IMG/VR virus record: IMGVR_UViG_3300036945_000802
Strand: one strand, 5' to 3'
Length of the DNA: 64,000 nt
DNA from: an uncultured virus (IMG/VR IMGVR_UViG_3300036945_000802)
Lineage: Duplodnaviria; Heunggongvirae; Uroviricota; Caudoviricetes
Positions 17,938 to 49,242 of this stretch are shown here, one piece after another. The notes beneath the pieces were generated by a model. The model was not told the origin of the DNA. It saw only the letters and a program-made list of their open reading frames with translations, and did not search any database. The first letter of the stretch is position 1. Each line of letters starts with the position of its first letter. Both the position numbers and the translations under genes were made by a program.

Positions 17938-20900
17938 ATGTCACTGAAGATTTTTTCCCAAGCTCCTTATCATGACGATTACGATGAAACGAAGAAGTAT
18001 CTTCGTATGTTGTTTCGTCCAGGAGTTTCGTTGCAAGTACGAGAGTTAAATCAATTACAAACTTATCTACAAACGCAAATCGAACGTTTAGGTTTACACC
18101 TATTTAAAGAAGGTTCGATGGTCATTCCAGGTCAAACTGCGATTGACACAAAAATTGTATATTTAAAAATTGAATCTGAAACGAATGGTGTAGAAATTGA
18201 CACTATTCTTTCTGATTTAGTAGGAAAAACTATTACTGGAGCTAGTGGTGTACAAGCTCAAGTTCTTACATATGCAACTGAAGAAGATACAGATCCAATT
18301 ACATTATTTGTTAGATATGTTTCCTCTTCTGATGACGAAGAAACAAAAACATTTTCTGCAGAAGAATTATTAACAACGGTTATCGATGGTGAAGAATATA
18401 CTCTTCAAATTCTCCCTGTAGCTAATACTCCTGTTGGTTTAGGTTCTATTGCTTCTATACAATCTGGCATTTACTTTATTAAAAGCCAATTTGTTCAAGT
18501 TGAATCTGCAACAATCATTCTTGCAAAATATAGCAATACGCCGACATATCGTGTTGGTCTATTGGCAACAGAAAACATTGTAACATCTAATTCTGATGCT
18601 ACATTAAATGATAATGCCAATGGTTCACCAAATGAAAATGCTCCAGGTGCACATCGTTATCAATTATTGTTAACTTTCGCTAAATTAACTTTAGAATCTG
18701 AATTAGACGAAAACTTTATTGAATTACTACGCATTGAAGATGGAGAACTAAAGAGTAAAGTAGAAACATCTACATATTCTGAACTAGCTAAAACACTAGC
18801 GCGTCGTACATATGATGAATCTGGTAATTATACAGTTCGTCCTTTTAAATTAGCTATTCGCGAGCATCGTAATAATGATCGTGGTCCATGGCAAGCATTT
18901 ACAGAATATCGTTTAGGCGATGTTGTAAAGAGTGGTGATAATTATTTCACTGCTATGGAAACAGCTACATCTGGTACAATTGAACCAGATACTACATTTT
19001 CTGAAACTAATCCATATCAAATCTATTCAGATAGTAATATGGATTGGAACTATACTCCTCGTCCTTCGTTTAATCGTGGATATAAAGCACCAGAAAATGG
19101 TGGTTCAGAATCTTCATTCGCAGTTGCTGTTGAACCTGGTAAAGGCTATGTTCAAGGTTATGAAATTGAAAAAATTGCAACTGAATTTTTAGAAGTTCCT
19201 AAGTCGCGCGAATATGTACGTATTGATGGTGACTCTATTGATATTAAATACGGCAATTTCATTTATGTTTCAAACGTATATGGTGTACCAGATTGTACAA
19301 CATATCCAACTGTTACATTATATGATCAATTAACTCCATCTACAAATTCTCAAGCTTCTGGTGCTGGTAATGCTATCGGTACAGCACGTTTACGTGCATT
19401 TGAATATGATTCAGGTACTCCAGGAGCTTCTGCTGTTTATAGAGCGTATTTGTTCGATCTTCAAATAGAAGAAGGATATACATTTGAGCGTGATGTTAAA
19501 CAACTATATTATGATTCAGGTACAACACTAAGCAATTTTGTTGCTGATGTTTCTCAAATTTATGTTACATTAAGCGGTACAATTGGCGCTTCATCTACAA
19601 CAGTAACTGGTGTTGGTTCAAAATTTACAACAGAATTAAAAGTTGGTGATTATATTCGTGTAGAAGATTCTGCTGGAGCATTAGAAACTCGCAGAATTAC
19701 TTCTATTACTAATAATACAACTCTTGCTATTGCAACTGCATTTAGTGGCACTGTTACTGGTAAAACATTCCAGCGTGTAATGACACAAATCCAAGATCCA
19801 AGTTTTACTGGATTGATTTTCCCGCTTGCGCAATCATTTATTCGTAAAGTTCGTGGCGGTGATAATGATGCAACATTTGCAACGTCATATACAACCACAC
19901 AAAAGTTTACTGGTTCTACTTCTTCAGGTCAAACATCATTGACTATCTCTGTTGGAGCAGCATCAGGTTCAACGACTCTTGGTACTGAATTTAATCCAGC
20001 TGCTAATAAGAATGAATTCGTTGTAATCAATCGTTCTACTGGCAGACCAGTTAATCCTACTGCTATTAATTTAATCAATAATGGTGCTGATGCACAAATT
20101 ACAGGATTAGCACAATCATCTTCATATACAGTATTTGCTCCAGTTCGTAAGGCTGGTACAATTGCTCAAGAAAAGAAGAAAACACTTATTAGCAATGCAG
20201 TTAAAGATTTTACATCTATTGGTGCAGTTCAACCATTAACATTATCTCTTGCTAAAGCTGACGGATATCGCATCATTGCTATTCGTATGAAAAATAGCGG
20301 ATTCACTGCGTCTTCTGATCCAGCTGAAACAACTGATATCACAGATTGGTATACATTTGACAATGGTCAACGTGAAACACACTATGATGTGGCTACAATC
20401 ACACGTAAACCTGGATATCCAGTTCCAAAAGGTGCTGTTCGTGTAATCTTTGATTATTTTGACCACACAACTGGTACTGCTGGTGACTACTTCACAGTAG
20501 ACTCATACTCAGATATTCCATTTGAAAATATTCCATATTTCACACCTCCTGGTGGCATGATTGCTCTTGCCGACGTAATGGATTTCCGTCCACGTATCAA
20601 TGATGCTGGTACAGGTTATAGCAGCACAGGTGCATCTCCTTCAGAATTGCCAAAACTTGGATTCGAAACAATTGCAAGTTATTCACATTATCTAGCTCGT
20701 CGCGATAAGTTGGCGCTTGATATCGAAGGTAGATTCTTTACTGTTTCAGGCGTAGCAAGCACTGCACCGCAAGAACCAAAAGATCCTGTGCTTGGAATGA
20801 TGCTTGCTAAATTAAACGTATCTCCATACACAGCGTTTCCAAGCGATGGTTCTGTTACGATTGAAACTATTGACACTAAGCGTTACACAATGCGTGATAT

Positions 20901-23900
20901 TGGTAAGTTAGACAAGCGTATTGAAAACTTAGAATATTACACTGCTCTTTCATTGTTAGAAAACGAAACAAAATCTCTTACAATCAAAGATGAAGTTGGC
21001 TTAGAGCGTTTCAAAAATGGATTTATTGTTGATAACTTTAAAGGTCAAGACTTAGGTGACGTAGCATCTACTGATTATCGTTGTTCTATTGATATGACTG
21101 CACAAGAATTACGTCCATTTTATACAATGGATAACGTAAATCTTGTAGAAGAAAATCAAATTCCTGGAGATAGAGTAGCAGACGGTTATCAATTAACTGG
21201 TGATATTATTTCATTACCATATAGCCATCTTAAGTTTATTTCTCAACCATTTGCTTCGCGTACTGAGAACGTTAACCCATTTGCTGTGTTTACATTCTTG
21301 GGTCAAATGTCATTAAATCCACCATCTGATGATTGGTTTGAAACAGATCGTCGTCCAGATATTATCACAAACGTAGAAGGTAACTTCTCAGCTGTACAAA
21401 CACAACTTGAAAACCAAGGCGTTCTTGGTACAGTATGGAATGCATGGCAAACAACTTGGACAGGTCAAACACGTAACATTGATCGTTTAGTTGTTACACG
21501 TGGATTTGATAGCACAAACTTTGGTCTTGGCGCTGGTCGTTGGATGGATCGTCGTACATTTACTGCTGCTGAACTTCGTGCAATTGGTGGTGACGCAACA
21601 TCATTTGGTAATGGTGCAGCAGGTGCTCGTGTATTGACATTCCAAACACAAGCTACTACTGTTGGTCAATCTCGTTCAGGTATTACAACATCTGTTGTAC
21701 CTAAAGTTGATTATGAAGTAATCGATGACAAAGTACTTCAAACTGCTGTTATTCCATATATTCGTGCTCGTGAATTATTATTTGTATGTCGAGGTTTAAA
21801 ACCAAATACAAAATTAAATCCATTCTTTGATGATGCATCAATTCAAGCATATGTAACTCCTGCAACTCGTCTTCCAATTACACAAAATGGTTCTTTAGAG
21901 TTTGACACAGAAACTAATGCTGGTGCAGCTGCTAATGATATTGGTCGTCAAGTTGGCGGTAAACCAGAAGTATCATTCAATAAGGGTGATGTAATTTACG
22001 TTAAAACACGTGGAGGTACAACGTACAATTCACAAGTAACATCTCCAGCTCGTGGCGTTGCAGTATTAAAAGAAAAAACTACTGATACTGGTGCAGAAGG
22101 TGTTTATGTTCTAAACGTAACTGGCACATTCCAAGGCGGAGATATTATTAAGGGTTCTATTTCAGGAGCAGAATATATTATCCAAGGTTCAGGAGCTATT
22201 GCTACTGCTATACAAGGCGCAAATTTAGTAACTAACTTTAACGGTAACTTAGCTGGTATTTTCTCAATTCCAAATACTGACAGCATGCGTTTCCGCACAG
22301 GTATTCGTGAATTTAAATTGAGTGATAGTACAACTGGTGGTCAAGACTTTACAACACAAGGTCGTGGCACATATCGTGCACAAGGTACACTAGAAACTAA
22401 ACAACGTTCAGTTAATGCTGTACGTAATGCTGAAATTGTTACACGTCCTGCATCAGAACAACGTACACAAGAGATCTTCTCTCCAGAACGTATTGTTCGT
22501 GATACTGGTTGGTACGACCCACTTGCCCAAACTATTATGATTGGTTCTAAGGGCGGTGCATTCTTAACTAAAGTTGATATTTTCTTCTCTACTAAAGATG
22601 CAAACATTCCTGTTAACTTACAAATTCGTGAGTCTGTAAACGGTTATCCAGGTCCAGGTATTTTACCTTTCTCTAAGATTACATTAAACCCAGATCAAAT
22701 TCAAACATCTAACGATGCTACTGTACCAACTACATTCACATTTGAATCTCCAGTTTATGTTCAAGACGAGACTGAATACTGTATCGTTCTTTTATCTGAT
22801 TCAAATAATTATCGTGTTTGGATTTCACAACTTGGCGAAAAGAATATTGGAACAGAACGTTTCATTTCTGAGCAACCATATGCAGGTGTATTGTTTAAAT
22901 CACAAAACGCTTCTACATGGACTGCTAATCAAGAACAAGATTTGAAGTTCACAGTATATCGTGCCGAGTTTAATACAAACACAGAAGGTATTGCAACATT
23001 TACTAATGATATTCTTCCTCCTGCTGTTTTAGATGCAAATCCATTTAAGACAACGCTAGATTCATCTAAAGTACGTGTATCACATCGTAATCATGGTATG
23101 CCATCTGGTTCAACTGTAATTATTTCTAACGTTGCTGATGGAGACTATAACGGTATTATTACAACTTCTTCTTCTGGTTTAAATGGTGAATTTATCATTA
23201 GTAATCCAGAATCAGATTCATATGTTATCGATACTGGTACAGATGCTGATGCTACAGGATTTGTTGGTGGTACTGATATCGTTGTTTCTGAAAACGTTCC
23301 AATGGACGCAGCTCAACTAATTACTCAATCACAAACATTCTCTGACACAACATTGTCATATGAAATGTTGACTACTGATACAGCATATAATTTTGCAACA
23401 GAACCGGTTAGTGTAATTCCTAATGAAACCGTATATTTTACTTCATCACAACAAGTAGTTTCTGCAATTAACGAAGCAACTGCTACTTCTTTAGATGGTT
23501 CAAAATCGTTAAAGGTTGTTGCAAGATTGAATACAGATAATTCTGCATTATCTCCAATCATTGATACTTCACGCTTATCTGTTGCAACGATTAAAAATAG
23601 AGTTGATAACTTTACGTATGTTACTAAAAACGTTGATGGCTTAGACGATATAATTATCGCAGATGCTATTTCAGGTTTCACATTTGATGAAAATAATCCA
23701 GGAACAATTTATGTTCCAAGTACTGCAAGAGCTGCTGTTCGTTCTATCACAGTTGGCAAGTATGTATCTGTTAGCGGCACAACAAATAACAATACAACAC
23801 TTCCAGTATTAGTAACTGCTGTTGCTGCTGATGGTTCATCTATCACGACAAATTACGATGCATTTGAAACTGAATCTCCAGCTAATACTACTATCACATT

Positions 23901-24294
23901 GAAAGATAATTTCATTGATGAAAGTGTACCAATTGGCGGCACTGCAACATCTAAGTACTTAACTCGTTTAATTAACTTAGAACAACCTTCAACATTCTTG
24001 AAAGTTATGTTCTCAGCTAATATTCCTGCAGTAACTGATTCAGATGTTGAAGTTTGGTATAAACTAATTCCAACTGGTACAAACGGAGATATCTCTCAAC
24101 ATTCATTTGTTCGTGCTACAACGCCTACAAAAAATGTTAAGAAAACTTCTAATCCAGATGAATTTGTAGATGTACAATACGATTTGACAGATCTTGCAGA
24201 ATTTGATGGTGTTGTTGTTAAATTAGTGTTCAAATCTGGTAATAGCGCACAAGTACCACGCGTAAAAGAATTACGAGTAATTGCTTGTGCATAA
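17938..24294 (+). CDS. large virion structural protein (DUF4815 / VrlC-like)
   Basis: PYHDDYD, LFRPG..LQ.RELNQLQ, LARRTYDESGNY, RYTMRDIG.L..RIENLEYYT, DPLAQT, LFKSQNASTW; 2118 aa. Confidence 0.8.
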   Translation: MSLKIFSQAPYHDDYDETKKYLRMLFRPGVSLQVRELNQLQTYLQTQIERLGLHLFKEGSMVIPGQTAIDTKIVYLKIESETNGVEIDTILSDLVGKTITGASGVQAQVLTYATEEDTDPITLFVRYVSSSDDEETKTFSAEELLTTVIDGEEYTLQILPVANTPVGLGSIASIQSGIYFIKSQFVQVESATIILAKYSNTPTYRVGLLATENIVTSNSDATLNDNANGSPNENAPGAHRYQLLLTFAKLTLESELDENFIELLRIEDGELKSKVETSTYSELAKTLARRTYDESGNYTVRPFKLAIREHRNNDRGPWQAFTEYRLGDVVKSGDNYFTAMETATSGTIEPDTTFSETNPYQIYSDSNMDWNYTPRPSFNRGYKAPENGGSESSFAVAVEPGKGYVQGYEIEKIATEFLEVPKSREYVRIDGDSIDIKYGNFIYVSNVYGVPDCTTYPTVTLYDQLTPSTNSQASGAGNAIGTARLRAFEYDSGTPGASAVYRAYLFDLQIEEGYTFERDVKQLYYDSGTTLSNFVADVSQIYVTLSGTIGASSTTVTGVGSKFTTELKVGDYIRVEDSAGALETRRITSITNNTTLAIATAFSGTVTGKTFQRVMTQIQDPSFTGLIFPLAQSFIRKVRGGDNDATFATSYTTTQKFTGSTSSGQTSLTISVGAASGSTTLGTEFNPAANKNEFVVINRSTGRPVNPTAINLINNGADAQITGLAQSSSYTVFAPVRKAGTIAQEKKKTLISNAVKDFTSIGAVQPLTLSLAKADGYRIIAIRMKNSGFTASSDPAETTDITDWYTFDNGQRETHYDVATITRKPGYPVPKGAVRVIFDYFDHTTGTAGDYFTVDSYSDIPFENIPYFTPPGGMIALADVMDFRPRINDAGTGYSSTGASPSELPKLGFETIASYSHYLARRDKLALDIEGRFFTVSGVASTAPQEPKDPVLGMMLAKLNVSPYTAFPSDGSVTIETIDTKRYTMRDIGKLDKRIENLEYYTALSLLENETKSLTIKDEVGLERFKNGFIVDNFKGQDLGDVASTDYRCSIDMTAQELRPFYTMDNVNLVEENQIPGDRVADGYQLTGDIISLPYSHLKFISQPFASRTENVNPFAVFTFLGQMSLNPPSDDWFETDRRPDIITNVEGNFSAVQTQLENQGVLGTVWNAWQTTWTGQTRNIDRLVVTRGFDSTNFGLGAGRWMDRRTFTAAELRAIGGDATSFGNGAAGARVLTFQTQATTVGQSRSGITTSVVPKVDYEVIDDKVLQTAVIPYIRARELLFVCRGLKPNTKLNPFFDDASIQAYVTPATRLPITQNGSLEFDTETNAGAAANDIGRQVGGKPEVSFNKGDVIYVKTRGGTTYNSQVTSPARGVAVLKEKTTDTGAEGVYVLNVTGTFQGGDIIKGSISGAEYIIQGSGAIATAIQGANLVTNFNGNLAGIFSIPNTDSMRFRTGIREFKLSDSTTGGQDFTTQGRGTYRAQGTLETKQRSVNAVRNAEIVTRPASEQRTQEIFSPERIVRDTGWYDPLAQTIMIGSKGGAFLTKVDIFFSTKDANIPVNLQIRESVNGYPGPGILPFSKITLNPDQIQTSNDATVPTTFTFESPVYVQDETEYCIVLLSDSNNYRVWISQLGEKNIGTERFISEQPYAGVLFKSQNASTWTANQEQDLKFTVYRAEFNTNTEGIATFTNDILPPAVLDANPFKTTLDSSKVRVSHRNHGMPSGSTVIISNVADGDYNGIITTSSSGLNGEFIISNPESDSYVIDTGTDADATGFVGGTDIVVSENVPMDAAQLITQSQTFSDTTLSYEMLTTDTAYNFATEPVSVIPNETVYFTSSQQVVSAINEATATSLDGSKSLKVVARLNTDNSALSPIIDTSRLSVATIKNRVDNFTYVTKNVDGLDDIIIADAISGFTFDENNPGTIYVPSTARAAVRSITVGKYVSVSGTTNNNTTLPVLVTAVAADGSSITTNYDAFETESPANTTITLKDNFIDESVPIGGTATSKYLTRLINLEQPSTFLKVMFSANIPAVTDSDVEVWYKLIPTGTNGDISQHSFVRATTPTKNVKKTSNPDEFVDVQYDLTDLAEFDGVVVKLVFKSGNSAQVPRVKELRVIACA

Positions 24295-24531: not shown

Positions 24532-25623
24532 ATGTCTGTCATAAACGTAAGTTTAGAAGATACATTCGAACAATGGAGAGTTAAGACTAATCAACTTGGT
24601 TCTACCATTGGTGATGCAGATTCTCTTCAAACAACTTCAACAAATTTAGTTGCAGCAATTAACGAAGTGCGTAGTAACGCGCTAGTTGATGGTACTATCA
24701 CGACTTTTGGTAATACATTTCAAATTAACGTCGATCAAGGCGATTCAGCTGAGTTAATCTTAGATTTAGATGGAAATTTAACATTAGCTGGTGATTTAAT
24801 TGCTGACGTTACTGGAAACTTAAATGGTAATGCAAATACAGCTACAAAACTTCGTAATGGTCGTATTATTTCTATCACTGGAGATGCAACATGGGATGTA
24901 GTATTTGATGGATCTTCAAATGCAACGGGACAATTACAACTTAATCCTACCGGAGTAGAACCTGGAACTTATACAAAGGTTACAGTAGATGGTGATGGTA
25001 GAATTTATGAAGGTTTTGATTTAGAAGATACAGACGTTACTACAGCATTAGGTTTTACACCAGTAAGTGAAGAAGCAGGATATGATAATCCAAGTTGGCT
25101 TACATCTATTAATGGTAATAAGATTAATAGCTCAACAGATATTACTATTGCCAATCTAACAGTTGGAAGTAGAGTATATCTCGGTAATGGTTCTGCTACT
25201 GCCCCAAGTCTTGGATTTTCATCTGATGGAGCACAAGATACTGGAATTTATTGGGGTGGGGATGGTTCTATATTTTTTACAAATAACGGTGTAAAAAGTG
25301 GAGAGATTCAACCCGGTGGTAATTTGGTTATGGTTGGTAACGTTGGTGGTTATTCAGATATACGTCTTAAGAAAGACATTGAAACTATCAAAGGTGCTTT
25401 AGATATTGTTAATCAATTAAGAGGCATCTATTACACATCTATAGATACTAATGAACGTAGTGTTGGTGTTGTAGCACAAGAAGTGCAAAATAAAATTCCA
25501 GAATTAATTCGCGTTGGCGAAAATGGAATGCTCTCAGTTTCATATGGAAATATGGGAGGTCTTCTTCTACAAGCTATTAATGAATTGACAGATAGAGTAA
25601 AAGCTATTGAAGCTAAATTATGA
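24532..25623 (+). CDS. tail fibre with C-terminal intramolecular chaperone (peptidase S74)
   Basis: N-terminal DTFEQWRVKTN; GTYTKVTVD.DGR fibre motif; SDIRLKKDIETI...GVVAQEV...VSYGNM..LLLQAINEL. Confidence 0.88.
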   Translation: MSVINVSLEDTFEQWRVKTNQLGSTIGDADSLQTTSTNLVAAINEVRSNALVDGTITTFGNTFQINVDQGDSAELILDLDGNLTLAGDLIADVTGNLNGNANTATKLRNGRIISITGDATWDVVFDGSSNATGQLQLNPTGVEPGTYTKVTVDGDGRIYEGFDLEDTDVTTALGFTPVSEEAGYDNPSWLTSINGNKINSSTDITIANLTVGSRVYLGNGSATAPSLGFSSDGAQDTGIYWGGDGSIFFTNNGVKSGEIQPGGNLVMVGNVGGYSDIRLKKDIETIKGALDIVNQLRGIYYTSIDTNERSVGVVAQEVQNKIPELIRVGENGMLSVSYGNMGGLLLQAINELTDRVKAIEAKL

Positions 25624-26030
25624 CTTTACAAACAACTGGATTAATTACTCTTAGAGATATCGCAAATGAGGCTGGGCAACCAACCTCATTTTCACCTTCC
25701 CTATCGTGGGTTAAATCAATCGTAAAACCTGCAAATAGACTTCCAACGAACGAAATTGATGACGTCTATGGATTTGCGTATTTCCAAAAAAATTCAGAAG
25801 GCAATTGCGCTAACGGCAATTGTATTGCAAACTGTAATTGCGGAAATATTCAATGCACGAATTGTGCTATTACTAGTGCAGTGAATTGTACGAATTGTGA
25901 TACACAAGCTTGGTTACAACCAAATTGTAATTGTGCTTGTACATATAATTGTAATCAAACTGAAATCAGCTATAATTGTGCATGTGCTTGTGCATGTGCG
26001 TGTGCATGTGCTGATGGTGGTGGTGGATAA
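25620..26030 (+). CDS. Cys/Asn-rich fibre-tip-like protein; putative radical SAM substrate
   Basis: N-terminus MTLQTTGLITLRDIANE resembles small proteins that follow S74 fibres. The C-terminal ~75 aa hold 18 Cys (11 as Asn-Cys) and end (CA)6DGGGG. Confidence 0.75.
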   Translation: MTLQTTGLITLRDIANEAGQPTSFSPSLSWVKSIVKPANRLPTNEIDDVYGFAYFQKNSEGNCANGNCIANCNCGNIQCTNCAITSAVNCTNCDTQAWLQPNCNCACTYNCNQTEISYNCACACACACACADGGGG

Positions 26031-26051: not shown

Positions 26052-27485
26052 ATGATATTTGAAATTTTAGCAGAGCGCAGTGAAAAAGACAGAAAAACAT
26101 TTTTTTATGATAATGTAAAAAATGTTTTATCTTCTGAAGATGGTTTTATATTTAGTGTAGAAAATAAAAAAACACACGATCATATATCTACACCATTTTC
26201 TAAAAAATCCCCATTAAAGAAATCCAAAAATATTACAAAGCTAAAGATCCAAATGGGTCTTTCGTGTAATTATTCATGCGACTATTGTTCTCAAAAATTT
26301 GTAGGTCGTCCACCAGAAACAAATAAAAAAGACATTGAAGACTTTATGAAAAAGTTGGAAGTGTTAGAGTTTACTGAGCAACAAGGATTATCAGTAGAAT
26401 TTTGGGGAGGAGAACCTTTCGTTTATTGGAAAACTATGAAGCCTCTTGCAGAAGCTATTATGGAAAAGTTTTCTCATTGGAAAAATAGACCTAAATTTTC
26501 TGTAATCACAAACGGTTCTATTTTAACGCGCGATATTTGTGCGTGGTTGTATTATATGGGATTTTACGTTTCTATTAGTCATGATGGACCTGGACAAAGT
26601 GTTAGAGGACCTGATCCATTCGAAGACGAAGAAGCAAAGAAGATCGTATTAGAATTTTATAAGATAATGAAACCACAAGGTAGAATTAGTTTTAATTCTA
26701 TGTTAAATTCTAAAAATAAAGATCGTAAAGCTATCCACGATTGGTTTATTAATTTTACTGGAGATCCTCAAGTTCCATTAGGAGAAGGAGCTTTAGTTGA
26801 TGCATATGATTTAGATGGCATGAATAATTCTTTATCTACTAAACAAGAACATTTTGAGTTTAGAAGAAATTCATTTAATGATATTAGATCAAATAATGGT
26901 TATATTGGATTTGGAACTATTCTTCAAAAAATAGATGGATTTACTAATTCTGTTATGAATCAACAACCTGCTTCTGGTCTTGGTCAAAAGTGTGGTATGG
27001 ACGATCAACATGTTTTAGCGATTGATATGAAAGGTAATGTTTTAACATGCCAAAATGTATCTGCTGTTGAAACTGCCATGAATGGTGAATCTCATTTGGG
27101 TGGTAACTTAGATGATTATGATAATGTCGAATTAAAATCTGCTACTCATTGGGCTAATAGAGAAGAATGTTCAAAATGTCCTGTTTTACATATGTGTAAA
27201 GGTTCATGTATGTTTTTAGATGGCAAATTTTGGAAAACAACGTGTGATAATGCATACTCCGATAATATTGCACTTTTTGCATTAGCATTTGAAAAGATGA
27301 CATCAGGCTATATTCCATTGTACATAAATAGTAATGAATTGCCTTCAGAGAGAAAAGATATTTGGGGCACAATATTAAGTCATAAAGAAGAAACTTCTAA
27401 AAGAATTATCCCTATTGTTGCAGTAAGTGAAAAAACAGTACTAGATAATGTAGAAGTTTATACACAAGCAAGGGTACAAGAGTAA
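26052..27485 (+). CDS. radical SAM / SPASM-domain peptide-modifying-type enzyme
   Basis: CNYSCDYC (CxxxCxxC), FWGGEP, ITNG, SISHDG; SPASM KCG...GNVLTC and CSKCPVLHMCKGSC...C. Confidence 0.93.
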   Translation: MIFEILAERSEKDRKTFFYDNVKNVLSSEDGFIFSVENKKTHDHISTPFSKKSPLKKSKNITKLKIQMGLSCNYSCDYCSQKFVGRPPETNKKDIEDFMKKLEVLEFTEQQGLSVEFWGGEPFVYWKTMKPLAEAIMEKFSHWKNRPKFSVITNGSILTRDICAWLYYMGFYVSISHDGPGQSVRGPDPFEDEEAKKIVLEFYKIMKPQGRISFNSMLNSKNKDRKAIHDWFINFTGDPQVPLGEGALVDAYDLDGMNNSLSTKQEHFEFRRNSFNDIRSNNGYIGFGTILQKIDGFTNSVMNQQPASGLGQKCGMDDQHVLAIDMKGNVLTCQNVSAVETAMNGESHLGGNLDDYDNVELKSATHWANREECSKCPVLHMCKGSCMFLDGKFWKTTCDNAYSDNIALFALAFEKMTSGYIPLYINSNELPSERKDIWGTILSHKEETSKRIIPIVAVSEKTVLDNVEVYTQARVQE

Positions 27486-27805
27486 TGATATTAATTGATA
27501 TAGAAAGTCAAAATTTACCAGAACTAATTCGCTTATATAAAACTATTCCTTATGTAGCACAAGTGCGCTGCAATAAAATTTTAAGACAACATTATAAAAA
27601 TATTGTAGGGGAAGATGGATTATACATTGCATGTTTAGTCCAGGTGAAGTCAGGCGAAGACAAGTATTTGAAGTTTGAAGATATCTTATCTAAAGAAGTG
27701 TGGGATGATCCTATGCAATATCAGAATTGTCTGCAAAGCATGAAATTAAAGATCGACGAATATATTGAAAACGATGTTCTTCCAAAACTACCAGATAGCG
27801 AATAA
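27485..27805 (+). CDS. hypothetical protein (paralog of next ORF)
   Basis: VAQVRCNKILRQHYKNIVGEDGLYIACL; TAATG coupling to the rSAM gene. Confidence 0.7.
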   Translation: MILIDIESQNLPELIRLYKTIPYVAQVRCNKILRQHYKNIVGEDGLYIACLVQVKSGEDKYLKFEDILSKEVWDDPMQYQNCLQSMKLKIDEYIENDVLPKLPDSE

Positions 27806-27807
27806 TT

Positions 27808-28104
27808 ATGGAAACATCTAATTTATTAACGTTAGTAAATCGTCTTAGACAAACTGAGCACGTTGCTCAAGTTAGATATCATCAAGTCTTAAAACAAAGA
27901 TTTAGAGATTTAGTTGGTGTAGATGGAGTTTCAATTGTATGTTTACTTACTAATAAAGCTAATTCTGAAAAGTTTGTTAAAATTGTAACTATATTAGAAG
28001 CTTCAGTGATTGAGAATTTAGATCGTCATGATGCAATCATAGAAGATATTAAAACCAGAATTGATGATTATATCATCAGAGATATAAGGCCTCCGATATT
28101 CTAA
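27808..28104 (+). CDS. hypothetical protein (paralog of previous ORF)
   Basis: VAQVRYHQVLKQRFRDLVGVDGVSIVCL. Confidence 0.7.
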   Translation: METSNLLTLVNRLRQTEHVAQVRYHQVLKQRFRDLVGVDGVSIVCLLTNKANSEKFVKIVTILEASVIENLDRHDAIIEDIKTRIDDYIIRDIRPPIF

Positions 28105-28838
28105 TGCTAACAGATCAAGAAATTAATGACTACTACGATAGTCTTGTGCCAATTATGCCAAGACCAGAAGATCGTGTAGTAGACATGTCATTCAAAAACA
28201 CTAATACTAATATTTTGATATCAGCTGGTAGATTATTGGCTGTTGCAAACTATTCTGCAAGTGTAAAAGCTTTAGCTGAATTTGATAAATCTAATATTTT
28301 TACATTTCAGTTAGTGGGAATGGAAGAACGTCCAAACTTATATTTCCAAAAGAATAAGTGTTGGAGAATTCGTGTTACAGAAGATGGTAAAGCTTGGCAA
28401 GATTCTCCTAATATCGAATCATTAGAGCAACTATATGATTTTATTCTGATCTCTCAAAAAGCTGCAGTATTAGATGTTATTCATCGTCGTTTAGATATGA
28501 ATAGACGTAGAGAAATTAAAGCTGCTCAAGGTCAAAACCACATTTATTTTGCAAAATATTTAGAAGCAAAAGAAATCCTTGAAAAAGGAATTACTGAAGA
28601 TCCTATTTGTAAATATCCATTTGTAACTGGTTATGCTGACTTAGTTGGTATGGATATTGTAGAAGCTTCTAAACGTATTAAATTCAAATATGAAACGCGT
28701 GCATCGTTTTTAGCAGAAAATGAAACACTTAGATTAAAATATACTTCATTTGTTAAACAACAAACTACTCTTGAAGATTTAGGTATTATTTTAGAACAAT
28801 TTAAAGCTGAAAGCACAAAGTACGGCGATTCACTATGA
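28104..28838 (+). CDS. hypothetical protein, possibly fibre-assembly-chaperone-like helical C-terminus
   Basis: 244-aa coupled ORF with a Y..KY.EA...YPFV..YA..G helical motif. Confidence 0.6.
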   Translation: MLTDQEINDYYDSLVPIMPRPEDRVVDMSFKNTNTNILISAGRLLAVANYSASVKALAEFDKSNIFTFQLVGMEERPNLYFQKNKCWRIRVTEDGKAWQDSPNIESLEQLYDFILISQKAAVLDVIHRRLDMNRRREIKAAQGQNHIYFAKYLEAKEILEKGITEDPICKYPFVTGYADLVGMDIVEASKRIKFKYETRASFLAENETLRLKYTSFVKQQTTLEDLGIILEQFKAESTKYGDSL

Positions 28839-29956
28839 GCACTATATTTTATAATAGTTACGATATCTTCGTAAACGAAGCATATCACGATAAGCGCAAT
28901 CAAATTCCAGGCGGTCATGCGTTTGGTGGTTATTTCCAATTGTTTTCTAGCAACATTACCTCTATTGATAGAACTAACACATTTAGTATTCCACTAAAAA
29001 CCACTTTATTACCACATCTTCAAATGCCTGAAATGAGAACATTCACTAAATCATTTAGTGATATTTGTGATGATAGAGCCATTGAATTGATGGATAAAGC
29101 TAAACGAGATAATCGTAAGATTGCTGTAATGTATAGCGGAGGGATTGATTCCACTGTTATTATATGTGCATTATTAAAAAATTGCTCTGAGCAAGATTTA
29201 AGAAATCACGTTGTTGTTTTATTAACTGATCATAGCATATTAGAAAATCCTAATTTTTATAACGATTATATTATTAAAAAGTTTGAATGCATTTCAAGTT
29301 ATAGATTTCCATATTTTTTAGGAAACGATGACTATATTGTAATTTCTGGTGAAAATGCAGATCAGTTATTTGGTTCTCAAGTAGTAGCTAAATTTATTGC
29401 ATATCGTTCATTTGATTATTTGTTTACTCCATTAGAACAAGCTTCTGGAGATATCATTGATTGGATGACTATGAAATTGCAAGATGAATATAAAAAATAT
29501 GCGCCGTATTATTGGCAAATGTTTAAGCATCTTTGTAATGCTGCTCCTATTCCTATTGATAATGTATATAAGTTTTTTTGGTGGATTAATTTTACAAATA
29601 AATGGCAGTCAGTTTATGTGCGCATATTGCCATATGCAAAAAATCGAAGCAACATTAAATTAGAAGATAACTATACTACGTTTTTCTGTCCAGAAGATTT
29701 CCAACTGTGGTCATTAAATAATCCAGATAATTTAGTAAGAGAATCTTTAGACAATGTAAAATATATTGCAAAAGATTATATTTTAGATTTTAATGGCGAT
29801 CAATCTTATTATAAAAAACCTAAGATTGGTAGTTTAACAAATATAGTTAAACAAAAAGAAATTGTTATGTTATTAAATGATGATATGACATTTACGAATG
29901 GTTATCCCGATAGCCAATACTGGAATGAAACAAATACTTTTTCGGAGATGATGTAA
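28835..29956 (+). CDS. asparagine-synthetase-like N-type ATP pyrophosphatase (synthetase domain only)
   Basis: PP-loop VMYSGGIDST and ISGENADQLFG (AsnB has LSGEGADELFG); no N-terminal Cys glutaminase domain. Confidence 0.8.
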   Translation: MSTIFYNSYDIFVNEAYHDKRNQIPGGHAFGGYFQLFSSNITSIDRTNTFSIPLKTTLLPHLQMPEMRTFTKSFSDICDDRAIELMDKAKRDNRKIAVMYSGGIDSTVIICALLKNCSEQDLRNHVVVLLTDHSILENPNFYNDYIIKKFECISSYRFPYFLGNDDYIVISGENADQLFGSQVVAKFIAYRSFDYLFTPLEQASGDIIDWMTMKLQDEYKKYAPYYWQMFKHLCNAAPIPIDNVYKFFWWINFTNKWQSVYVRILPYAKNRSNIKLEDNYTTFFCPEDFQLWSLNNPDNLVRESLDNVKYIAKDYILDFNGDQSYYKKPKIGSLTNIVKQKEIVMLLNDDMTFTNGYPDSQYWNETNTFSEMM

Positions 29957-30600
29957 TGATTATTGAAAATAAGATCGATGCGTTAGATACAATGTACCCT
30001 TGTTTTGCTGAAAAAATAGTAAACGCATTATATCATTCTAAACCATATTCTACTTTATATGGTTATATCATGTCTGGCGAAGTAACATTTCCAAATGGAA
30101 GCGTAGCTGTAGAAGGACAATATTTCTGTTATTGGACTGGACAAGGTGATTCTATTAGAACTACTGGAGAAGTTTACATATTCGCACGTCTTGGGTTCAA
30201 AGGGCAAAATACTATTGGTGGACCAATTGAAAAAAGTGGCCGCTTAGTTTATATTGACTCTTGTTCGGACAGTTTATTGGTGTATCCTCCTCGAATGGGA
30301 GATCCTTCATTAAACTTATTACAATTTCCAGTTGCCATTAAACAGACTTATCATATTCATCCAAGTATTAGACTTGGTGTAGTGGTAAAAGGCAAAGGTT
30401 ATGCTTGTATTAAAAGAGCATATGAAGAAGAACTAATTGAATTAAAACCAGGTATTATGTTTTGTATTGAAGAAAGAGAACAACATCGTTTTATGACAAC
30501 ACAAGATGAAATGACTGTTATTGCATTTCACCCAGATGGTGATTGGGGTCCAACTGATCATAATCACACAATGTTAAATAGAACATATATCACGAAATAA
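29956..30600 (+). CDS. cupin-fold metalloprotein
   Basis: QTYHIHPSIRLGVVVKGKG...EREQHRF...IAFHPD. Confidence 0.75.
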   Translation: MIIENKIDALDTMYPCFAEKIVNALYHSKPYSTLYGYIMSGEVTFPNGSVAVEGQYFCYWTGQGDSIRTTGEVYIFARLGFKGQNTIGGPIEKSGRLVYIDSCSDSLLVYPPRMGDPSLNLLQFPVAIKQTYHIHPSIRLGVVVKGKGYACIKRAYEEELIELKPGIMFCIEEREQHRFMTTQDEMTVIAFHPDGDWGPTDHNHTMLNRTYITK

Positions 30601-30971: not shown

Positions 30972-31603
30972 TGCCTTTACGTAGTAAACATAAAGCTGGT
31001 TATATAGGCTATGATAGGGTGAATAGTCCAGATGTTGGAAGTGGCATTTGGAATTTAAATCAACATCACACTGAAGTCACTGATTATAGTTGGGCTACTC
31101 AATCACTATACACGAATTATGATGGAAATTTGAATGGATTTACTGTTAGCGGTGCTACGACAAGTAGTAGCGCAATATATGTTCCAGGTAATAGCTATGC
31201 ATATAGAAATATGGTATCTCCATTTACAAGTGTATTATTTAAAACTATGACATTTGAAGTTTATATTAGTGGCGGAGTGTGTGGTGTATTAATCGGAAGT
31301 ACTGGTGATGGTCGAGGGCCTTTATTAAAATTAGATGCTCGTGGTGGTAGTAATTACAGTGGTATGATGTTCCAAACTTCGTGGACTGTTAGGGGTGACC
31401 CTCCAATTACTGGTGTACAATTACCGGCAAATTCTTGGGTACCTGTTCGGCTAGAAGTTAATAACGCTATGCGTATTGATTGGTCTGCTAATAATAAGTA
31501 TGATCGTCAACCAATTCTTTTATCTGGTGCATTTATTACATTTTTTGGATTAGGCGGTGCTGGATATTTTAGAAATATTAGAGTTTATAATGGTGTTTCA
31601 TAA
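30971..31603 (+). CDS. putative fibre-associated lectin-like protein
   Basis: N-terminal G.IG...SGIWNL motif followed by a beta-sandwich-like body. Confidence 0.5.
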   Translation: MPLRSKHKAGYIGYDRVNSPDVGSGIWNLNQHHTEVTDYSWATQSLYTNYDGNLNGFTVSGATTSSSAIYVPGNSYAYRNMVSPFTSVLFKTMTFEVYISGGVCGVLIGSTGDGRGPLLKLDARGGSNYSGMMFQTSWTVRGDPPITGVQLPANSWVPVRLEVNNAMRIDWSANNKYDRQPILLSGAFITFFGLGGAGYFRNIRVYNGVS

Positions 31604-32796
31604 TGTATAACGGTGGAATATTCGGAAAAAAAAATTATCCAAACGTTTTTAGTGCTAATGGAATATGGCATTTAAAACAAGTTGGTAGTTTTATCGAGCG
31701 TGGAGAATGGTATTTCGGAAGAAATGCTACTGTTAATGCAACTTCTTTCTTAGAAGGCGATACAATTACTGTTACGATTAATGCTCCAACTTTGCCAGAT
31801 GGAACCAAATTGTATTGGACTATTAATACTGTTTCAGGTACTATTCGTACAGATGACTTTGATAATCGTATTTTGAATGGTCCGCTTTCTATCATCAATG
31901 GCAAAGATACAACCAGTCGTAAATTAGAAACTAGCAAACAAGGCGATGGCAATAGATCATTTACTATCGCTGTTAGAACTGAATCAGTTGAAGGCCCAGT
32001 TATTGCAACAACACCTGTATTATCTTTAGATGACGTCGCTCGTGGTGGTAATGCTATTTTTGATAGAGGCGGTTATCGTTATCATAAATTTACTTCTTCC
32101 GGAAATTTCCTTTGTAATCGTTCTCTTGGTTTAACTGTATTTGCAGTTGGAGGAGGTGGCGGTGGCGGAGGTAATGGCGGTGGTGGAGGTGGAGGTGGCG
32201 GTATCGTATATACCAACATTAGTGTCGGAGCTGGAACATATTTTATTGGAATTGGTGGAGGTGGTAGCGCTGCACCAAATGGAAGCGTTCACGGCGGAAG
32301 TGGTGGTAATACTACATTCCAAGGATTTATAACTGCTAACGGTGGCGGTGGCGGTGGTTCTCGCGACACGGATCGTAATGGTTATTTTGGCGGATCAGGT
32401 GGAGGTGGTTCAAGCAACGGCGGCGGAGGTGGAGGAACTCCTGGTCAAGGCAATGGTGGAGGTAATGGTATTATTGCTGGTAATGGCGAAGTTCAATCTA
32501 CTGGTGGAGGCGGCGGTGGATATGGCGGCGGTGGTCAAAGCGGTGTAGCTAAAGATGCTGGTAATGGTGGACCTGGCGGTGCATTTGATCCAACTGCCGA
32601 TGGTGCTGCAGAATATTATTCTGGCGGAGGAGGCGGAGGTAGAACAGTATTTGGTACAACAGGTGCTAATGGTCAAGGTCAAGGAGCAAATCGCGGTGGC
32701 GGAGGTAAAGGTGGATCTGGAGGAGCGACTTCATTTGCAGCTCAAGCAGGAGATACTGGATATTGTGTAGTGCGTTATTTAATTCCGAGTAGTTAA
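31603..32796 (+). CDS. glycine-rich adhesin-like protein
   Basis: N-terminal GGIFG...GIWHL, an Ig-like middle, YHKFTSSG and VGGGGGGG polyglycine repeats ending G.CVVRY. Confidence 0.75.
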   Translation: MYNGGIFGKKNYPNVFSANGIWHLKQVGSFIERGEWYFGRNATVNATSFLEGDTITVTINAPTLPDGTKLYWTINTVSGTIRTDDFDNRILNGPLSIINGKDTTSRKLETSKQGDGNRSFTIAVRTESVEGPVIATTPVLSLDDVARGGNAIFDRGGYRYHKFTSSGNFLCNRSLGLTVFAVGGGGGGGGNGGGGGGGGGIVYTNISVGAGTYFIGIGGGGSAAPNGSVHGGSGGNTTFQGFITANGGGGGGSRDTDRNGYFGGSGGGGSSNGGGGGGTPGQGNGGGNGIIAGNGEVQSTGGGGGGYGGGGQSGVAKDAGNGGPGGAFDPTADGAAEYYSGGGGGGRTVFGTTGANGQGQGANRGGGGKGGSGGATSFAAQAGDTGYCVVRYLIPSS

Positions 32797-48659: not shown

Positions 48660-49242
48660 AGCAGATTTATTTAGTTATTCAAACGTAGGAACGCCTGAAC
48701 AGAGGCAAGAATTGATTGATCGTTTATTGGCACTAAAAGCATCAGGTGCTAAAGACATTAATGAGTTGACTAATAACGAAGGATGCTGGAGATATTCATA
48801 TCCAATAAAAGATTGTGACTGGTTAAATCATGCTCTTTCAGTTATTATGAATGATGCATTCACATATTATGGTAATCAACCTGGAAGTAGAATTAGAATA
48901 CCTAGTGAAGAAAATAAAGTTTCTATAGGTAGTTGGTGTAATATTAATGAGAAATATTCTCGTAATGTATATCACTCACACAAAGGTTCTATTTTTTCAT
49001 GCGTATATTATCTTCAAGCAACTGATACTGGTAAACTAGTATTATCTAATCCTGCAAACATATTAAATGATTGCAGCGACTTTTCTCCATATACACGAGA
49101 CTTTTTCTTTTTACCAAAAGATGGTGATTTAGTACTTTGGCCTTCATGGATTCCGCATGAAGTAGAACCTAATATGTCTGATCGTCAGCGTATTAATATA
49201 GTATTTGATATTGATGTTCCATTTGTTTATGAACCAAAGTGA
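48634..49242 (+). CDS. putative 2OG-Fe(II) oxygenase (TIGR02466-like)
   Basis: SWCNIN, HSH, SCVYY, GDLVLWPSW.PHEV.PN, RINIVF. Confidence 0.8.
   Translation: MREPVTLFRADLFSYSNVGTPEQRQELIDRLLALKASGAKDINELTNNEGCWRYSYPIKDCDWLNHALSVIMNDAFTYYGNQPGSRIRIPSEENKVSIGSWCNINEKYSRNVYHSHKGSIFSCVYYLQATDTGKLVLSNPANILNDCSDFSPYTRDFFFLPKDGDLVLWPSWIPHEVEPNMSDRQRINIVFDIDVPFVYEPK

What the first reader, a model, noticed from the sequence alone, without database searches (positions are those of the whole stretch)
25800..26030. Asn-Cys-rich core ending in (Cys-Ala)6-Asp-Gly4, maintained at the protein level
Eleven of 18 Cys follow Asn (GNC, TNC, YNC, CNC), and the protein ends CACACACACACADGGGG. The six Ala codons vary (GCA, GCT, GCA, GCG, GCA, GCT), so this is not a fresh microsatellite slip. 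Inference: a repeated modification motif (Cys-to-Asn/Asp thioethers) or a metallothionein-like metal string. The poly-Gly C-terminus recalls the GG ends of ThiS/MoaD/ubiquitin-like proteins that get adenylated, which is notable given the PP-loop enzyme in the same cassette.
Basis: partly seen in the sequence, partly recalled or inferred. Interest (0 to 1): 0.75.

Follow-up and report, generated by a model that had tools for sequence, protein, structure and literature searches.

The report
Radical-SAM-matured cysteine-ladder phage fibre protein
A T4-like phage encodes, among its tail-fibre genes, a small protein built of asparagine-cysteine pairs that always travels with an iron-sulfur "radical SAM" enzyme, so the phage probably cross-links this protein chemically, much as bacteria mature peptide antibiotics.

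Summary
Window 25620-26030 (+) encodes a 136-aa protein with 18 Cys, 11 of them after Asn, ending (CA)6-D-GGGG. It is a real, selected gene: 151 near-length and 133 longer homologues, with Cys and Asn columns invariant or nearly so while their codons vary.

The key fact lies just outside the finding. The next gene (26052-27485) is a radical SAM/SPASM enzyme, and a homologue of it sits on the same strand, within about 1.6 kb, beside the Asn-Cys protein in 80 of 80 viral loci and 5 of 5 bacterial-genome loci.

Best reading (about 0.6): the protein is a tail-fibre-associated part. It has a folded N-terminal domain of about 58 aa and an Asn/Cys core that the enzyme modifies, most likely by Cys thioether cross-links as in NxxcB, PapB, QhpD and CrpC.

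The (CA)6 run is a lineage version of a family-wide (Cys-X)n ladder, with X mostly Ala, Asn or Asp. The Gly4 end is not conserved: 49 of 120 end in Gly, 26 in Trp, and 22 are fused to further C-terminal domains (21 carry Peptidase_S74).

The ThiS/MoaD-like reading is not supported. The PP-loop gene occurs in 9 of 80 viral loci, essentially one clade.

I found no paper describing this module. Earlier agents of this scan noted it in other genomes.

The parts
25620..26030 (+). 136-aa Asn/Cys-rich protein (whole ORF including stop). Its ATG overlaps the stop of the upstream fibre gene (ATGA).
   Evidence: 151 homologues at E<=0.01; no Pfam, NCBIfam or PHROG family
25620..25793 (+). N-terminal domain, residues 1-58, confidently folded; possible adaptor or recognition domain
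   Evidence: AF2 block-mean pLDDT 78-90 for residues 1-50 and 68 for 51-60. Weak fold hits to the gp38 adhesin N-terminus (6f45_D Z 2.2, rmsd 2.3, 45 aligned; BFVD gp38-domain proteins prob 0.89 and 0.63). Not supported by sequence (hhalign probability 0.15).
25800..25976 (+). Asn/Cys-rich core, residues 61-119 (GNCxNGNC...NCNCACTYNC...YN)
   Evidence: Invariant and near-invariant Cys and Asn columns. AF2 pLDDT below 50 for residues 60-92 and 104-136, block mean 68 for 91-100. NC units lost together in homologues.
25977..26012 (+). (Cys-Ala)6 ladder, residues 120-131
   Evidence: The family-wide equivalent is (Cys-X)n with 3-8 Cys in 118 of 120 members; X is A 219, N 124, D 102 of 566.
26013..26027 (+). 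Asp-Gly4 C-terminus, residues 132-136
   Evidence: lineage-specific, GGGG in 9 of 120 and any terminal Gly in 49 of 120
26052..27485 (+). Radical SAM/SPASM enzyme (477 aa), the proposed modifying enzyme
   Evidence: PF04055 3.4e-09. TIGR04085 SPASM domain 34.9 bits against cut-off 27; best full-length matches PapB, QhpD and CcpM, all far below cut-offs. CX3CX2C at C72/76/79 plus seven SPASM Cys, all invariant in 45 homologues. AF2 pLDDT 89.8. Nearest solved folds anSME, ChlB, CteB, TigE, SuiB. Adjacent to the Asn/Cys protein in 85 of 85 loci.
24532..25623 (+). Tail fibre protein (363 aa) with a C-terminal Peptidase_S74 intramolecular chaperone domain
   Evidence: PF13884 1.5e-11; PHROG long tail fibre distal subunit families
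17938..24294 (+). 2118-aa protein between the baseplate genes and the fibre gene (phrog_358, unknown function)
   Evidence: co-linear in the related loci L012, L013 and L016
27485..28104 (+). Two paralogous small proteins (106 and 98 aa), unknown function
   Evidence: no family. They fall in one similarity cluster, found in L003, L004, L006, L013, L023 and L083.
28104..28838 (+). 244-aa protein of unknown family, part of the lineage-specific accessory cassette
   Evidence: cluster present in 9 loci
28835..29956 (+). PP-loop (SGGIDS) ATP-pyrophosphatase-like protein; weak match to Asn synthetase and PP-loop families
   Evidence: PF01171 E 0.0048 and PF00733 E 0.0059, both below cut-offs. Present in 9 of 80 viral and 1 of 5 genomic loci.
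29956..30600 (+). Cupin-fold protein (214 aa), part of the accessory cassette
   Evidence: PF07883 2e-05, below cut-off; cluster present in 8 loci

Best explanation
The 136-aa ORF encodes a small tail-fibre-associated protein with two parts. Residues 1-58 form a folded N-terminal domain. Residues 61-136 form an Asn/Cys-rich core that is the dedicated substrate of the radical SAM/SPASM enzyme encoded 21 nt downstream. By analogy with NxxcB (Cys to Asn C-beta), PapB and QhpD (Cys to Asp/Glu) and CrpC (protein-level ranthionines), the enzyme most likely abstracts a hydrogen from an acceptor residue (Asn, Asp or Ala) and joins that carbon to a Cys sulfur held on an auxiliary Fe-S cluster. It would do this many times, turning a core that does not fold on its own into a thioether-stapled, reduction-proof knot or ladder on the fibre. 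The (CA)6 run is this lineage's version of a family-wide (Cys-X)n C-terminal ladder. The Asp-Gly4 end is a lineage trait that may be handled by the accessory cassette of 244-aa protein, PP-loop protein and cupin. Shown here: the gene is real and under protein-level selection; the pairing with the enzyme is strict; the enzyme keeps all cluster-binding Cys; the setting is a tail-fibre module. Inferred: that the protein is the substrate, that the product is a thioether, and that it sits in the virion.
For: A homologue of the enzyme lies on the same strand beside the protein in 80 of 80 viral loci, 39 downstream and 41 upstream, at most about 1.6 kb apart and mostly under 100 nt, and in 5 of 5 genomic loci. 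The enzyme has CX3CX2C plus a seven-Cys SPASM motif, invariant in 45 homologues at 64% mean column identity. Its best full-length NCBIfam matches are PapB (5e-21), QhpD (6.6e-19) and CcpM. Its nearest solved folds all modify peptides or proteins: anSME 3.1e-14, ChlB, CteB, TigE, SuiB (profile search). Cys and the preceding Asn are invariant or nearly so despite synonymous codon turnover. N71/C72 are lost together in 18 of 23 losses, and N73/C74 in 8 of 8-9. The ladder's X residues are Ala, Asn or Asp in 445 of 566 positions; NxxcB is reported to accept Asn, Ala, Gln and Asp as acceptors (PMC9389541, passages). AF2 with 120 sequences folds the N-terminal domain (block-mean pLDDT 78-90 for residues 1-50) but leaves most of the core below 50, as expected if folding needs modification, metal or partners. 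Fibre setting: baseplate and fibre genes flank it, and its start overlaps the stop of a Peptidase_S74 fibre gene. 21 of 120 homologues carry a Peptidase_S74 domain themselves, and others carry Hint domains. In the cultured Achromobacter phage JWF, a tail-fibre protein ends in NCNCDCNCNCS before a Hint domain, and a 42%-identical enzyme lies one gene away. In Ralstonia phage RSP15, a side tail fibre ends ...NTNCQCGN three genes before a 44%-identical enzyme. Precedent for protein-sized substrates: CrpC/CrpA (PMC13692751, abstract).
Against: No chemistry was measured. The enzyme scores far below every curated family cut-off (PapB 75 against 340, QhpD 68 against 453, TIGR04463 47 against 525). 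Its best structural neighbour is anSME, which makes formylglycine rather than thioethers. It has no obvious RRE; its N-terminus is three beta strands. Many loci are near-copies or one phage lineage, so 85 of 85 is not 85 independent events (71 distinct coding sequences). In the roughly 300-aa forms the pair lies among non-structural genes (gp59-like, nuclease, cell-wall hydrolase) and the protein ends in a hydrophobic segment, so a virion role may not hold for the whole family. The gp38-like fold hit is weak (Z 2.2) and has no sequence support. A Cys-rich string could equally bind metal.
Confidence: 0.6

Rival explanations
1. The enzyme does modify the protein, but by other SPASM chemistry. 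Options are oxidation of Cys to formylglycine (as anSME does), epimerisation, C-C or C-O cross-links, or sactionine (C-alpha) links rather than beta-thioethers.
For: anSME is the best structural neighbour (3.1e-14). The best PDB sequence hit is 8vpo (TigE), an entry cited in a paper on cyclopropyl synthases (paper seen as a listing only). All curated thioether families are missed by large margins.
Against: The substrate's conserved residues are Cys and Asn, not the Cys/Ser-x-Pro/Ala-x-Arg sulfatase motif (recalled, not from a call) or Val/Lys/Trp motifs. The top full-length family matches are thioether makers. The NC units vary together.
Confidence: 0.18
2. The Cys ladder is a metal site or Fe-S scaffold. 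It would be metallothionein-like, or play the role of the metal-binding His repeats in the T4 gp37 fibre tip (recalled). The enzyme would act on something else, or only help assembly.
For: 18 Cys in 76 residues with Cys-X-Cys spacing. The core is not predicted to fold alone. Alternating Cys-X in a strand would put all thiols on one face (inference).
Against: This does not explain the strict pairing with a SPASM enzyme, nor the near-invariance of the Asn before Cys and the joint loss of NC units. No metallothionein or other family match was found.
Confidence: 0.12
3. One reading: the Gly4 C-terminus is adenylated like ThiS, MoaD or ubiquitin by the PP-loop enzyme, making the protein a sulfur or ligation carrier.
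For: Within one clade, the cassette of 244-aa protein, PP-loop protein and cupin goes with Gly-ended tails in 9 of 10 loci. The PP-loop protein has an SGGIDS motif and weak Asn-synthetase similarity, and that class of enzyme activates carboxylates (established knowledge).
Against: A Gly terminus occurs in only 49 of 120 homologues. The PP-loop gene is in 9 of 80 viral loci and forms essentially one clade plus the divergent L082, whose tail ends in Arg. The Gly-ended lineage L054-L057, L059 and L061 has no PP-loop match, though their contigs differ in how far they run downstream and L055 ends soon after the enzyme gene. ThiS/MoaD activators are E1-type, not PP-loop (established knowledge). No beta-grasp fold is predicted. 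PP-loop relatives occur without the pair.
Confidence: 0.04
4. The modified protein is not a virion part. It would be a released or membrane-acting RiPP-like product, for example for exclusion of other phages or manipulation of the host.
For: The roughly 300-aa forms sit among non-structural genes and end in a hydrophobic segment. Self-cleaving Hint or Peptidase_S74 domains could release the core.
Against: In this window the gene is translationally coupled to a fibre gene inside the baseplate and fibre block. Peptidase_S74 is a fibre and spike chaperone domain (Pfam name). The JWF and RSP15 NC tails are on annotated tail fibres. There is no signal peptide by eye (inference).
Confidence: 0.1

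Closest known systems
NxxcB/NxxcA (streptococcal radical SAM RiPP, NxxC subfamily)
   Same: A SPASM radical SAM enzyme sits next to a substrate with Asn and Cys. It forms a beta-thioether from Cys to Asn and tolerates Ala, Gln and Asp as acceptors (PMC9389541, passages), the same residues that fill the X positions of the ladder here. NxxC spacings occur in the window protein (N65-C68, N71-C74, N76-C79, N102-C105, N104-C107, N119-C122).
   Different: Its substrate is a short peptide with one cross-link, in a quorum-sensing-regulated bacterial operon (recalled). Here the substrate is a 136-aa phage protein with 18 Cys in a fibre module. No NxxcB model was among the 25 best NCBIfam matches listed.
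CrpC/CrpA of Methanococcus voltae and QhpD/QhpC of quinohaemoprotein amine dehydrogenase
   Same: SPASM enzymes that install thioether cross-links on protein-sized, Cys-rich substrates encoded next door (CrpC: PMC13692751, abstract; QhpD: family name, chemistry recalled).
   Different: They are cellular, not viral, with unrelated substrates. The enzyme here scores 67.9 against 453 (TIGR03906) and 46.9 against 525 (TIGR04463), so it belongs to neither family.
PapB/PapA (freyrasin) and CteB/SCIFF ranthipeptide systems
   Same: PapB is the best NCBIfam match, aligned over residues 61-387. PapB links Cys to Asp or Glu repeatedly in a repeat substrate (PMC9413430, abstract start in the listing). 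CteB is among the nearest solved structures.
   Different: 75.3 bits against a cut-off of 340. No CX3D repeats. There is no evident leader plus RRE arrangement.
gp38 adhesin of T2/S16-type phages
   Same: A small gene directly after the distal fibre gene (S16 gene order). The only PDB fold hit of the N-terminal domain is S16 gp38 (6f45_D, Z 2.2, rmsd 2.3, 45 residues), and gp38-domain proteins appear among the BFVD hits.
   Different: The match is weak and has no sequence support. The receptor-binding part of gp38 is Gly-rich (visible), not Asn/Cys-rich, and needs no radical SAM enzyme.
ThiS/MoaD/ubiquitin-like GG carriers
   Same: Only a Gly-rich C-terminus in this lineage, with an ATP-pyrophosphatase-like gene nearby.
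   Different: The Gly end is not conserved. No beta-grasp fold is predicted. The nearby enzyme is PP-loop type, not E1 type, and is absent from most loci.

Membership tests
Radical SAM/SPASM peptide or protein maturase (enzyme 26052-27485) | CX3CX2C radical SAM cluster motif | tested here: met
   C72, C76, C79; invariant in 45 homologues; PF04055 37.5 bits against cut-off 29.5
Radical SAM/SPASM peptide or protein maturase (enzyme 26052-27485) | Seven-Cys SPASM domain for two auxiliary clusters | tested here: met
   C314, C333, C373, C376, C382, C386, C398, all invariant; TIGR04085 34.9 bits against cut-off 27
Ranthipeptide systems (PapB NF047865; CcpM TIGR04068; SCIFF TIGR03974) | Enzyme reaches the curated family score | tested here: not met
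   75.3 against 340; 65.7 against 500; 44.8 against 425
Ranthipeptide systems | Cys-rich substrate encoded next to the enzyme | tested here: met
   85 of 85 loci, same strand in all 80 viral loci
Ranthipeptide systems | Thioether between Cys sulfur and a non-alpha carbon of an acceptor residue | not testable with these tools
   Needs mass spectrometry or NMR of the co-expressed product
QhpD (TIGR03906) / CrpC-type (TIGR04463) protein thioether synthases | Enzyme reaches the curated family score | tested here: not met
   67.9 against 453; 46.9 against 525
ThiS/MoaD/ubiquitin-like carriers | Conserved C-terminal Gly-Gly | tested here: not met
   37 of 120 end in GG or GGGG; 49 of 120 end in any Gly; 26 end in W, 15 in C, 22 are fused, 8 other
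ThiS/MoaD/ubiquitin-like carriers | Beta-grasp fold | tested here: inconclusive
   The AF2 model has three short helices and two short strands, with most of the core below pLDDT 50. Foldseek against the PDB gave no match at E<=0.001, and the VIA wide search listed one chain at Z>=2, S16 gp38.
ThiS/MoaD/ubiquitin-like carriers | Partner E1-type (ThiF/MoeB) adenylating enzyme | tested here: not met
   No such family among the 12 neighbouring ORFs. The neighbour is PP-loop-like and is present in only 9 of 80 viral loci.
gp38-type fibre-tip adhesin | Sequence membership (a Pfam gp38 family or similarity to S16 gp38) | tested here: not met
   No gp38 family among the 120 members at E<=10; hhalign against S16 gp38 gave probability 0.15
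gp38-type fibre-tip adhesin | N-terminal attachment-domain fold and a position directly after the distal fibre gene | tested here: inconclusive
   Position met. Fold hit Z 2.2, rmsd 2.3, 45 aligned; BFVD probabilities 0.89 and 0.63 at E 0.3-0.5.
Metallothionein-like metal binder | Stoichiometric metal bound by clustered Cys-X-Cys thiolates | not testable with these tools
   The Cys-X-Cys pattern is present; metal content needs ICP-MS

The most novel reading that the evidence does not exclude
The phage runs a multi-enzyme, RiPP-style maturation line on a virion part. First, the radical SAM enzyme staples the Asn/Cys core, possibly across chains, giving a thioether 'chainmail' at the receptor-binding tip. 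Then lineage-specific tailoring sets are matched to the C-terminal tail. In this window the carboxylate-activating PP-loop enzyme, with the 244-aa protein and the cupin, would amidate the Asp-Gly4 end or ligate it covalently to the fibre. In sister lineages a tryptophan halogenase would act on a terminal Trp.
Probability: 0.15. Interest if true: 0.85.

Novelty: new variant of a known kind. Interest (0 to 1): 0.7.

Why it matters
Radical SAM thioether chemistry is known from small peptide natural products and from a few cellular proteins. Finding it hard-wired to a tail-fibre-associated protein in hundreds of phage sequences would mean that viruses covalently staple part of their host-recognition apparatus inside the reducing cytoplasm. 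That would be a new class of virion post-translational modification. It would bear on fibre stability, host range and phage engineering, and it would provide a large natural set of protein-sized substrates for enzymology. The module is directly testable, because cultured phages (JWF, RSP15) carry related enzymes next to fibres with NC tails.

Tried and rejected
- **Trimer prediction.** Three copies with alignment A1 gave no verdict (score 0.01 against a mark of 0.42). I count it neither for nor against.
- **Fold searches of the Asn/Cys protein.** Foldseek against the PDB found nothing at E<=0.001. A PDB profile search found only a chance-level hit at E 0.052. The atlas returned only unnamed viral clusters.
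- **tblastn of the protein against 50,697 phage records.** No match at 1e-3, with the low-complexity filter on.
- **phmmer of the N-terminal 58 aa against 1.84 billion representatives.** Ten hits. The long ones I read (P0247, P0249) are repeat or low-complexity matches, so no new architecture emerged.
- **gp38 membership by sequence.** Rejected.
- **PHROG hits of family members.** The 25 families listed are mostly tail-fibre families and match at most 21 of the 120 members, the same number as carry Peptidase_S74, so I attribute them to that fused domain; the call does not give match positions.
- **The window's own assembly.** It is not held. The nearest record, G001, is a 33-kb fragment that added nothing.
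- **The PP-loop protein.** No informative PDB match (best E 0.17). Its atlas neighbours are unnamed viral clusters, one with QueC on 10% of members. A scan with the single protein found 6 loci, four of them close relatives.
- **A chance or non-coding origin of the ORF.** Rejected by the homologue counts and codon evidence.
- **A fresh microsatellite.** Rejected.
- **Literature.** Five full-text searches aimed at phage radical SAM, fibre or RiPP systems found nothing on this module. Subscription-only papers are not covered.
Full report
**The observation**

Window 25620-26030 (+) is an ORF of 136 codons. Its start overlaps the stop of the upstream gene. The product has 18 Cys, all between residues 63 and 130, and 18 Asn. 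Eleven Cys directly follow Asn, and the protein ends NCACACACACACADGGGG. None of 100,000 shuffles of the core reached 11 NC dipeptides. TRF reports an imperfect 6-nt array at 25977-26011 with 86% matches.

**A real, selected gene**

- A search of near-length proteins found 151 homologues at E<=0.01 among 326 candidates. Of the 120 listed, I aligned 119 with the window protein as A1.
- A second search for longer proteins found 133 more that carry the same core.
- In A1, C63, N65, N67, C82, C90, N92, C93, N104, C105, Y109, N110, C111, C120, C122 and C124 are invariant. Most other Cys, and the Asn before them, are at least 90% conserved.
- Across 71 distinct coding sequences these columns use both synonymous codons freely, for example C90 TGT 47 / TGC 24 and N92 AAT 26 / AAC 45. 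Selection therefore acts on the residues, not on a DNA repeat.
- No Pfam, NCBIfam or PHROG family covers the protein.

**The C-terminus**

The (CA)6 run is one version of a family-wide ladder. The first uninterrupted (Cys-X)n run has 3-8 Cys in 118 of 120 members. X is Ala 219, Asn 124 and Asp 102 of 566 positions. Only 19 of 120 have (CA)5 or more.

The ends differ:

| C-terminal ending | Members of 120 |
|---|---|
| GGGG | 9 |
| GG | 28 |
| single G | 12 |
| Trp | 26 |
| Cys | 15 |
| other | 8 |
| 170 aa or longer (fused C-terminal domain) | 22 |

Twenty-one members carry a Peptidase_S74 intramolecular chaperone domain directly after the ladder, as in ...CFW|SDDxLK. Among the longer forms, some carry a Hint domain after the ladder (P0165, P0225). 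Most carry an unknown domain of about 170 aa with a hydrophobic end. The Gly4 end is therefore a lineage trait.

**The partner enzyme**

The gene 21 nt downstream (26052-27485) is a radical SAM enzyme with a full SPASM domain. It has CX3CX2C at C72/76/79 and seven further Cys at 314, 333, 373, 376, 382, 386 and 398.

I fetched 80 viral contigs that encode a relative of the Asn/Cys protein; these were the best 80 of 107 confirmed. I searched them with the window's cassette proteins. All 80 hold a homologue of the enzyme (51-100% identity) on the same strand: 39 downstream and 41 upstream, at most about 1.6 kb from the Asn/Cys gene, and mostly under 100 nt. All 5 loci found in bacterial and MAG genomes (Polynucleobacter, Paraburkholderia and three MAGs) show the same pairing. 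Many of these loci are near-copies or belong to one phage lineage, so they are not 85 independent events.

The enzyme is more conserved than its partner, with 64% mean column identity over 45 dereplicated sequences and all cluster Cys invariant.

- Best NCBIfam matches: PapB (5e-21), QhpD (6.6e-19), a geopeptide maturase and CcpM. All are far under the curated cut-offs.
- Best PDB sequence relatives: 8vpo (TigE), CteB and anSME.
- An AF2 model (pLDDT 89.8) matches anSME, ChlB, CteB, TigE and SuiB best.

It is therefore a SPASM enzyme of the peptide- or protein-modifying kind, but a member of no described family. Its N-terminus is three beta strands, not an obvious RRE.

**Setting**

PHROG matches place the window in the baseplate and fibre block of a T4-like myovirus: baseplate hub, wedge and tube proteins upstream, and sheath and terminase downstream. 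The gene before the Asn/Cys ORF is a fibre protein with a Peptidase_S74 domain.

Two cultured phages give independent hints.

- Achromobacter phage JWF has a 42%-identical enzyme one gene after a tail-fibre protein. That fibre ends ...RQNCNCDCNCNCS and is followed by a Hint domain.
- Ralstonia phage RSP15 has a 44%-identical enzyme three genes after a side tail fibre that ends ...NTNCQCGN.

**Structure**

AF2 with 120 sequences folds the N-terminal domain with confidence (block-mean pLDDT 78-90 for residues 1-50). Residues 60-92 and 104-136 stay below 50, and only the 91-100 block reaches 68. The only PDB fold hit of the confident part is the S16 gp38 adhesin (6f45_D; Z 2.2, rmsd 2.3, 45 residues). 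BFVD also lists gp38-domain proteins at weak E-values. Sequence comparison gives no support. I keep "gp38-like cap on the fibre" as a lead only, helped by the shared gene position after the distal fibre gene.

**NC units**

In homologues the Asn and the following Cys are lost together. N71/C72 are both absent in 18 sequences, where 4.4 would be expected by chance. N73/C74 are both absent in 8, where 0.6 would be expected. The replacement residues differ from case to case. The NC dipeptide thus behaves as a unit. This fits either a motif the enzyme recognises or a link between the two residues, but relatedness of the sequences inflates such counts.

NxxC spacings, as in the NxxcB substrate, are also frequent in the window protein. 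NxxcB makes a Cys-to-Asn beta-thioether and accepts Ala, Gln and Asp as acceptors (PMC9389541, passages). These are the residues found at X in the ladder. Protein-sized substrates have a precedent in CrpC/CrpA (PMC13692751, abstract).

**Mechanism I commit to (about 0.6)**

The enzyme binds the protein, perhaps through the N-terminal domain. It holds Cys thiolates on an auxiliary cluster and abstracts hydrogen from Asn, Asp or Ala acceptors. It thereby forms many thioether links, which lock the core into a rigid structure that is not sensitive to reduction, on or at the tip of the fibre.

Shown here are the pairing, the conservation, the intact cofactor sites and the fibre context. Inferred are the substrate relation, the bond type and the location in the virion.

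**Rivals**

- Other SPASM chemistry on the same substrate (0.18).
- A metal-binding ladder (0.12).
- A released, non-virion product (0.1). This is suggested by the roughly 300-aa forms, which lie among non-structural genes.
- The ThiS-like carrier idea (0.04).

**The PP-loop question**

The cassette of 244-aa protein, PP-loop protein and cupin follows the enzyme only in the window's relatives and a few others. The PP-loop gene is in 9 of 80 viral loci and 1 of 5 genomic loci. On a tree of 45 enzymes these loci form one clade (SH-aLRT support 91) plus the long-branched L082.

Within this set the tails end in Gly in 9 of 10 loci; L082 ends in Arg. Another Gly-ended lineage (L054-L057, L059, L061) has no PP-loop match, although those contigs run different distances downstream. 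PP-loop relatives at 33-35% identity also occur in triplicate next to PTPS, radical SAM and GTP cyclohydrolase I genes, without any Asn/Cys protein.

The link to the Gly end is therefore a single-lineage correlation. It is possible as tailoring, but it is not support for a ThiS-like mechanism.

**Prior knowledge**

Five full-text searches aimed at this module found no paper on it. The library lacks most subscription journals. Earlier agents of this scan reported the same kind of module in other genomes, and their notes agree with my reading (32 notes in at least 25 genomes by word search; look-alike stretches of the enzyme in 20 windows of 13 genomes). I saw their notes only after reaching my own reading.

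**Verdict**

This is a new variant of a known kind: radical SAM/SPASM maturation applied to a phage fibre-associated protein. Interest 0.7.

Noticed in passing
Loci L025-L028, L032, L038, L042, L044, L049, L050, L053, L062, L065, L072, L077-L079, L081: All 18 short homologues that end in ...CACACW (terminal Trp) have a gene from one of two similarity clusters nearby. One cluster's representative is a tryptophan halogenase (PF04820, 1.4e-91); the other I did not scan. None of these loci has the PP-loop cassette, so the accessory enzyme sets seem matched to the tail type. The Trp-ended loci form two or three groups on the enzyme tree.
   Followed up: partly
Loci L007-L011, L014, L015, L017-L022, L024, L031, L033-L037 and others (41 loci); proteins P0126, P0140: Forms of about 300 aa carry the same Asn/Cys core followed by an unknown domain of about 170 aa (starting CSKIICAKLY...) with a hydrophobic end. 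In these loci the radical SAM gene is always upstream. Their neighbours include an EF-hand-like 120-aa protein, an Asp/Asn beta-hydroxylase (PF05118) and 2OG-Fe(II) oxygenases (PF13759), among non-structural genes such as gp59-like.
   Followed up: partly
L002:4799-6250 (Achromobacter phage JWF gp028); P0165, P0225: The NC ladder is followed directly by a Hint (intein-like) domain whose first Cys continues the ladder. This suggests self-cleavage, or thioester-mediated transfer, at the ladder's end.
   Followed up: no
L001:4431-5303 and L001:14307-14984 (Ralstonia phage RSP15): A side tail fibre ends ...NTNCQCGN, and a 'head closure Hc2' protein ends ...GTCSC. Both lie within 7 kb of the 44%-identical radical SAM gene.
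   Followed up: no
window 27485-28104: Two tandem paralogous small proteins (106 and 98 aa) directly follow the radical SAM gene. They match no family. They could be stand-alone recognition or chaperone proteins for the enzyme, which lacks an obvious RRE.
   Followed up: no
window 47130-49242: A tryptophan halogenase (PF04820, 1.8e-94) and a 2OG-Fe(II) oxygenase (PF13759) lie about 21 kb downstream in the same late block, next to a methyltransferase-domain protein (45448-47133). Their targets are unknown.
   Followed up: no
L095:5997-8861: Three tandem PP-loop paralogues, two of them 33-35% identical to window 28835-29956, sit beside PTPS, radical SAM and GTP cyclohydrolase I genes. This looks like a 7-deazaguanine-type pathway (my inference from the Pfam names), with no Asn/Cys protein nearby.
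   Followed up: partly
window 31603-32796: A 397-aa protein with long Gly runs (PF21722 Gly_rich_2, 1.1e-11). It and the 210-aa protein before it share an N-terminal 'GIW(N/H)L' type motif. They are probably further fibre or decoration proteins.
   Followed up: no
window 25830-25841 (residues N71-C74) and alignment A1: In homologues the units N71/C72 and N73/C74 disappear together (18 of 23, and 8 of 8-9), with varied replacements. This points to NC dipeptides as the functional unit.
   Followed up: yes
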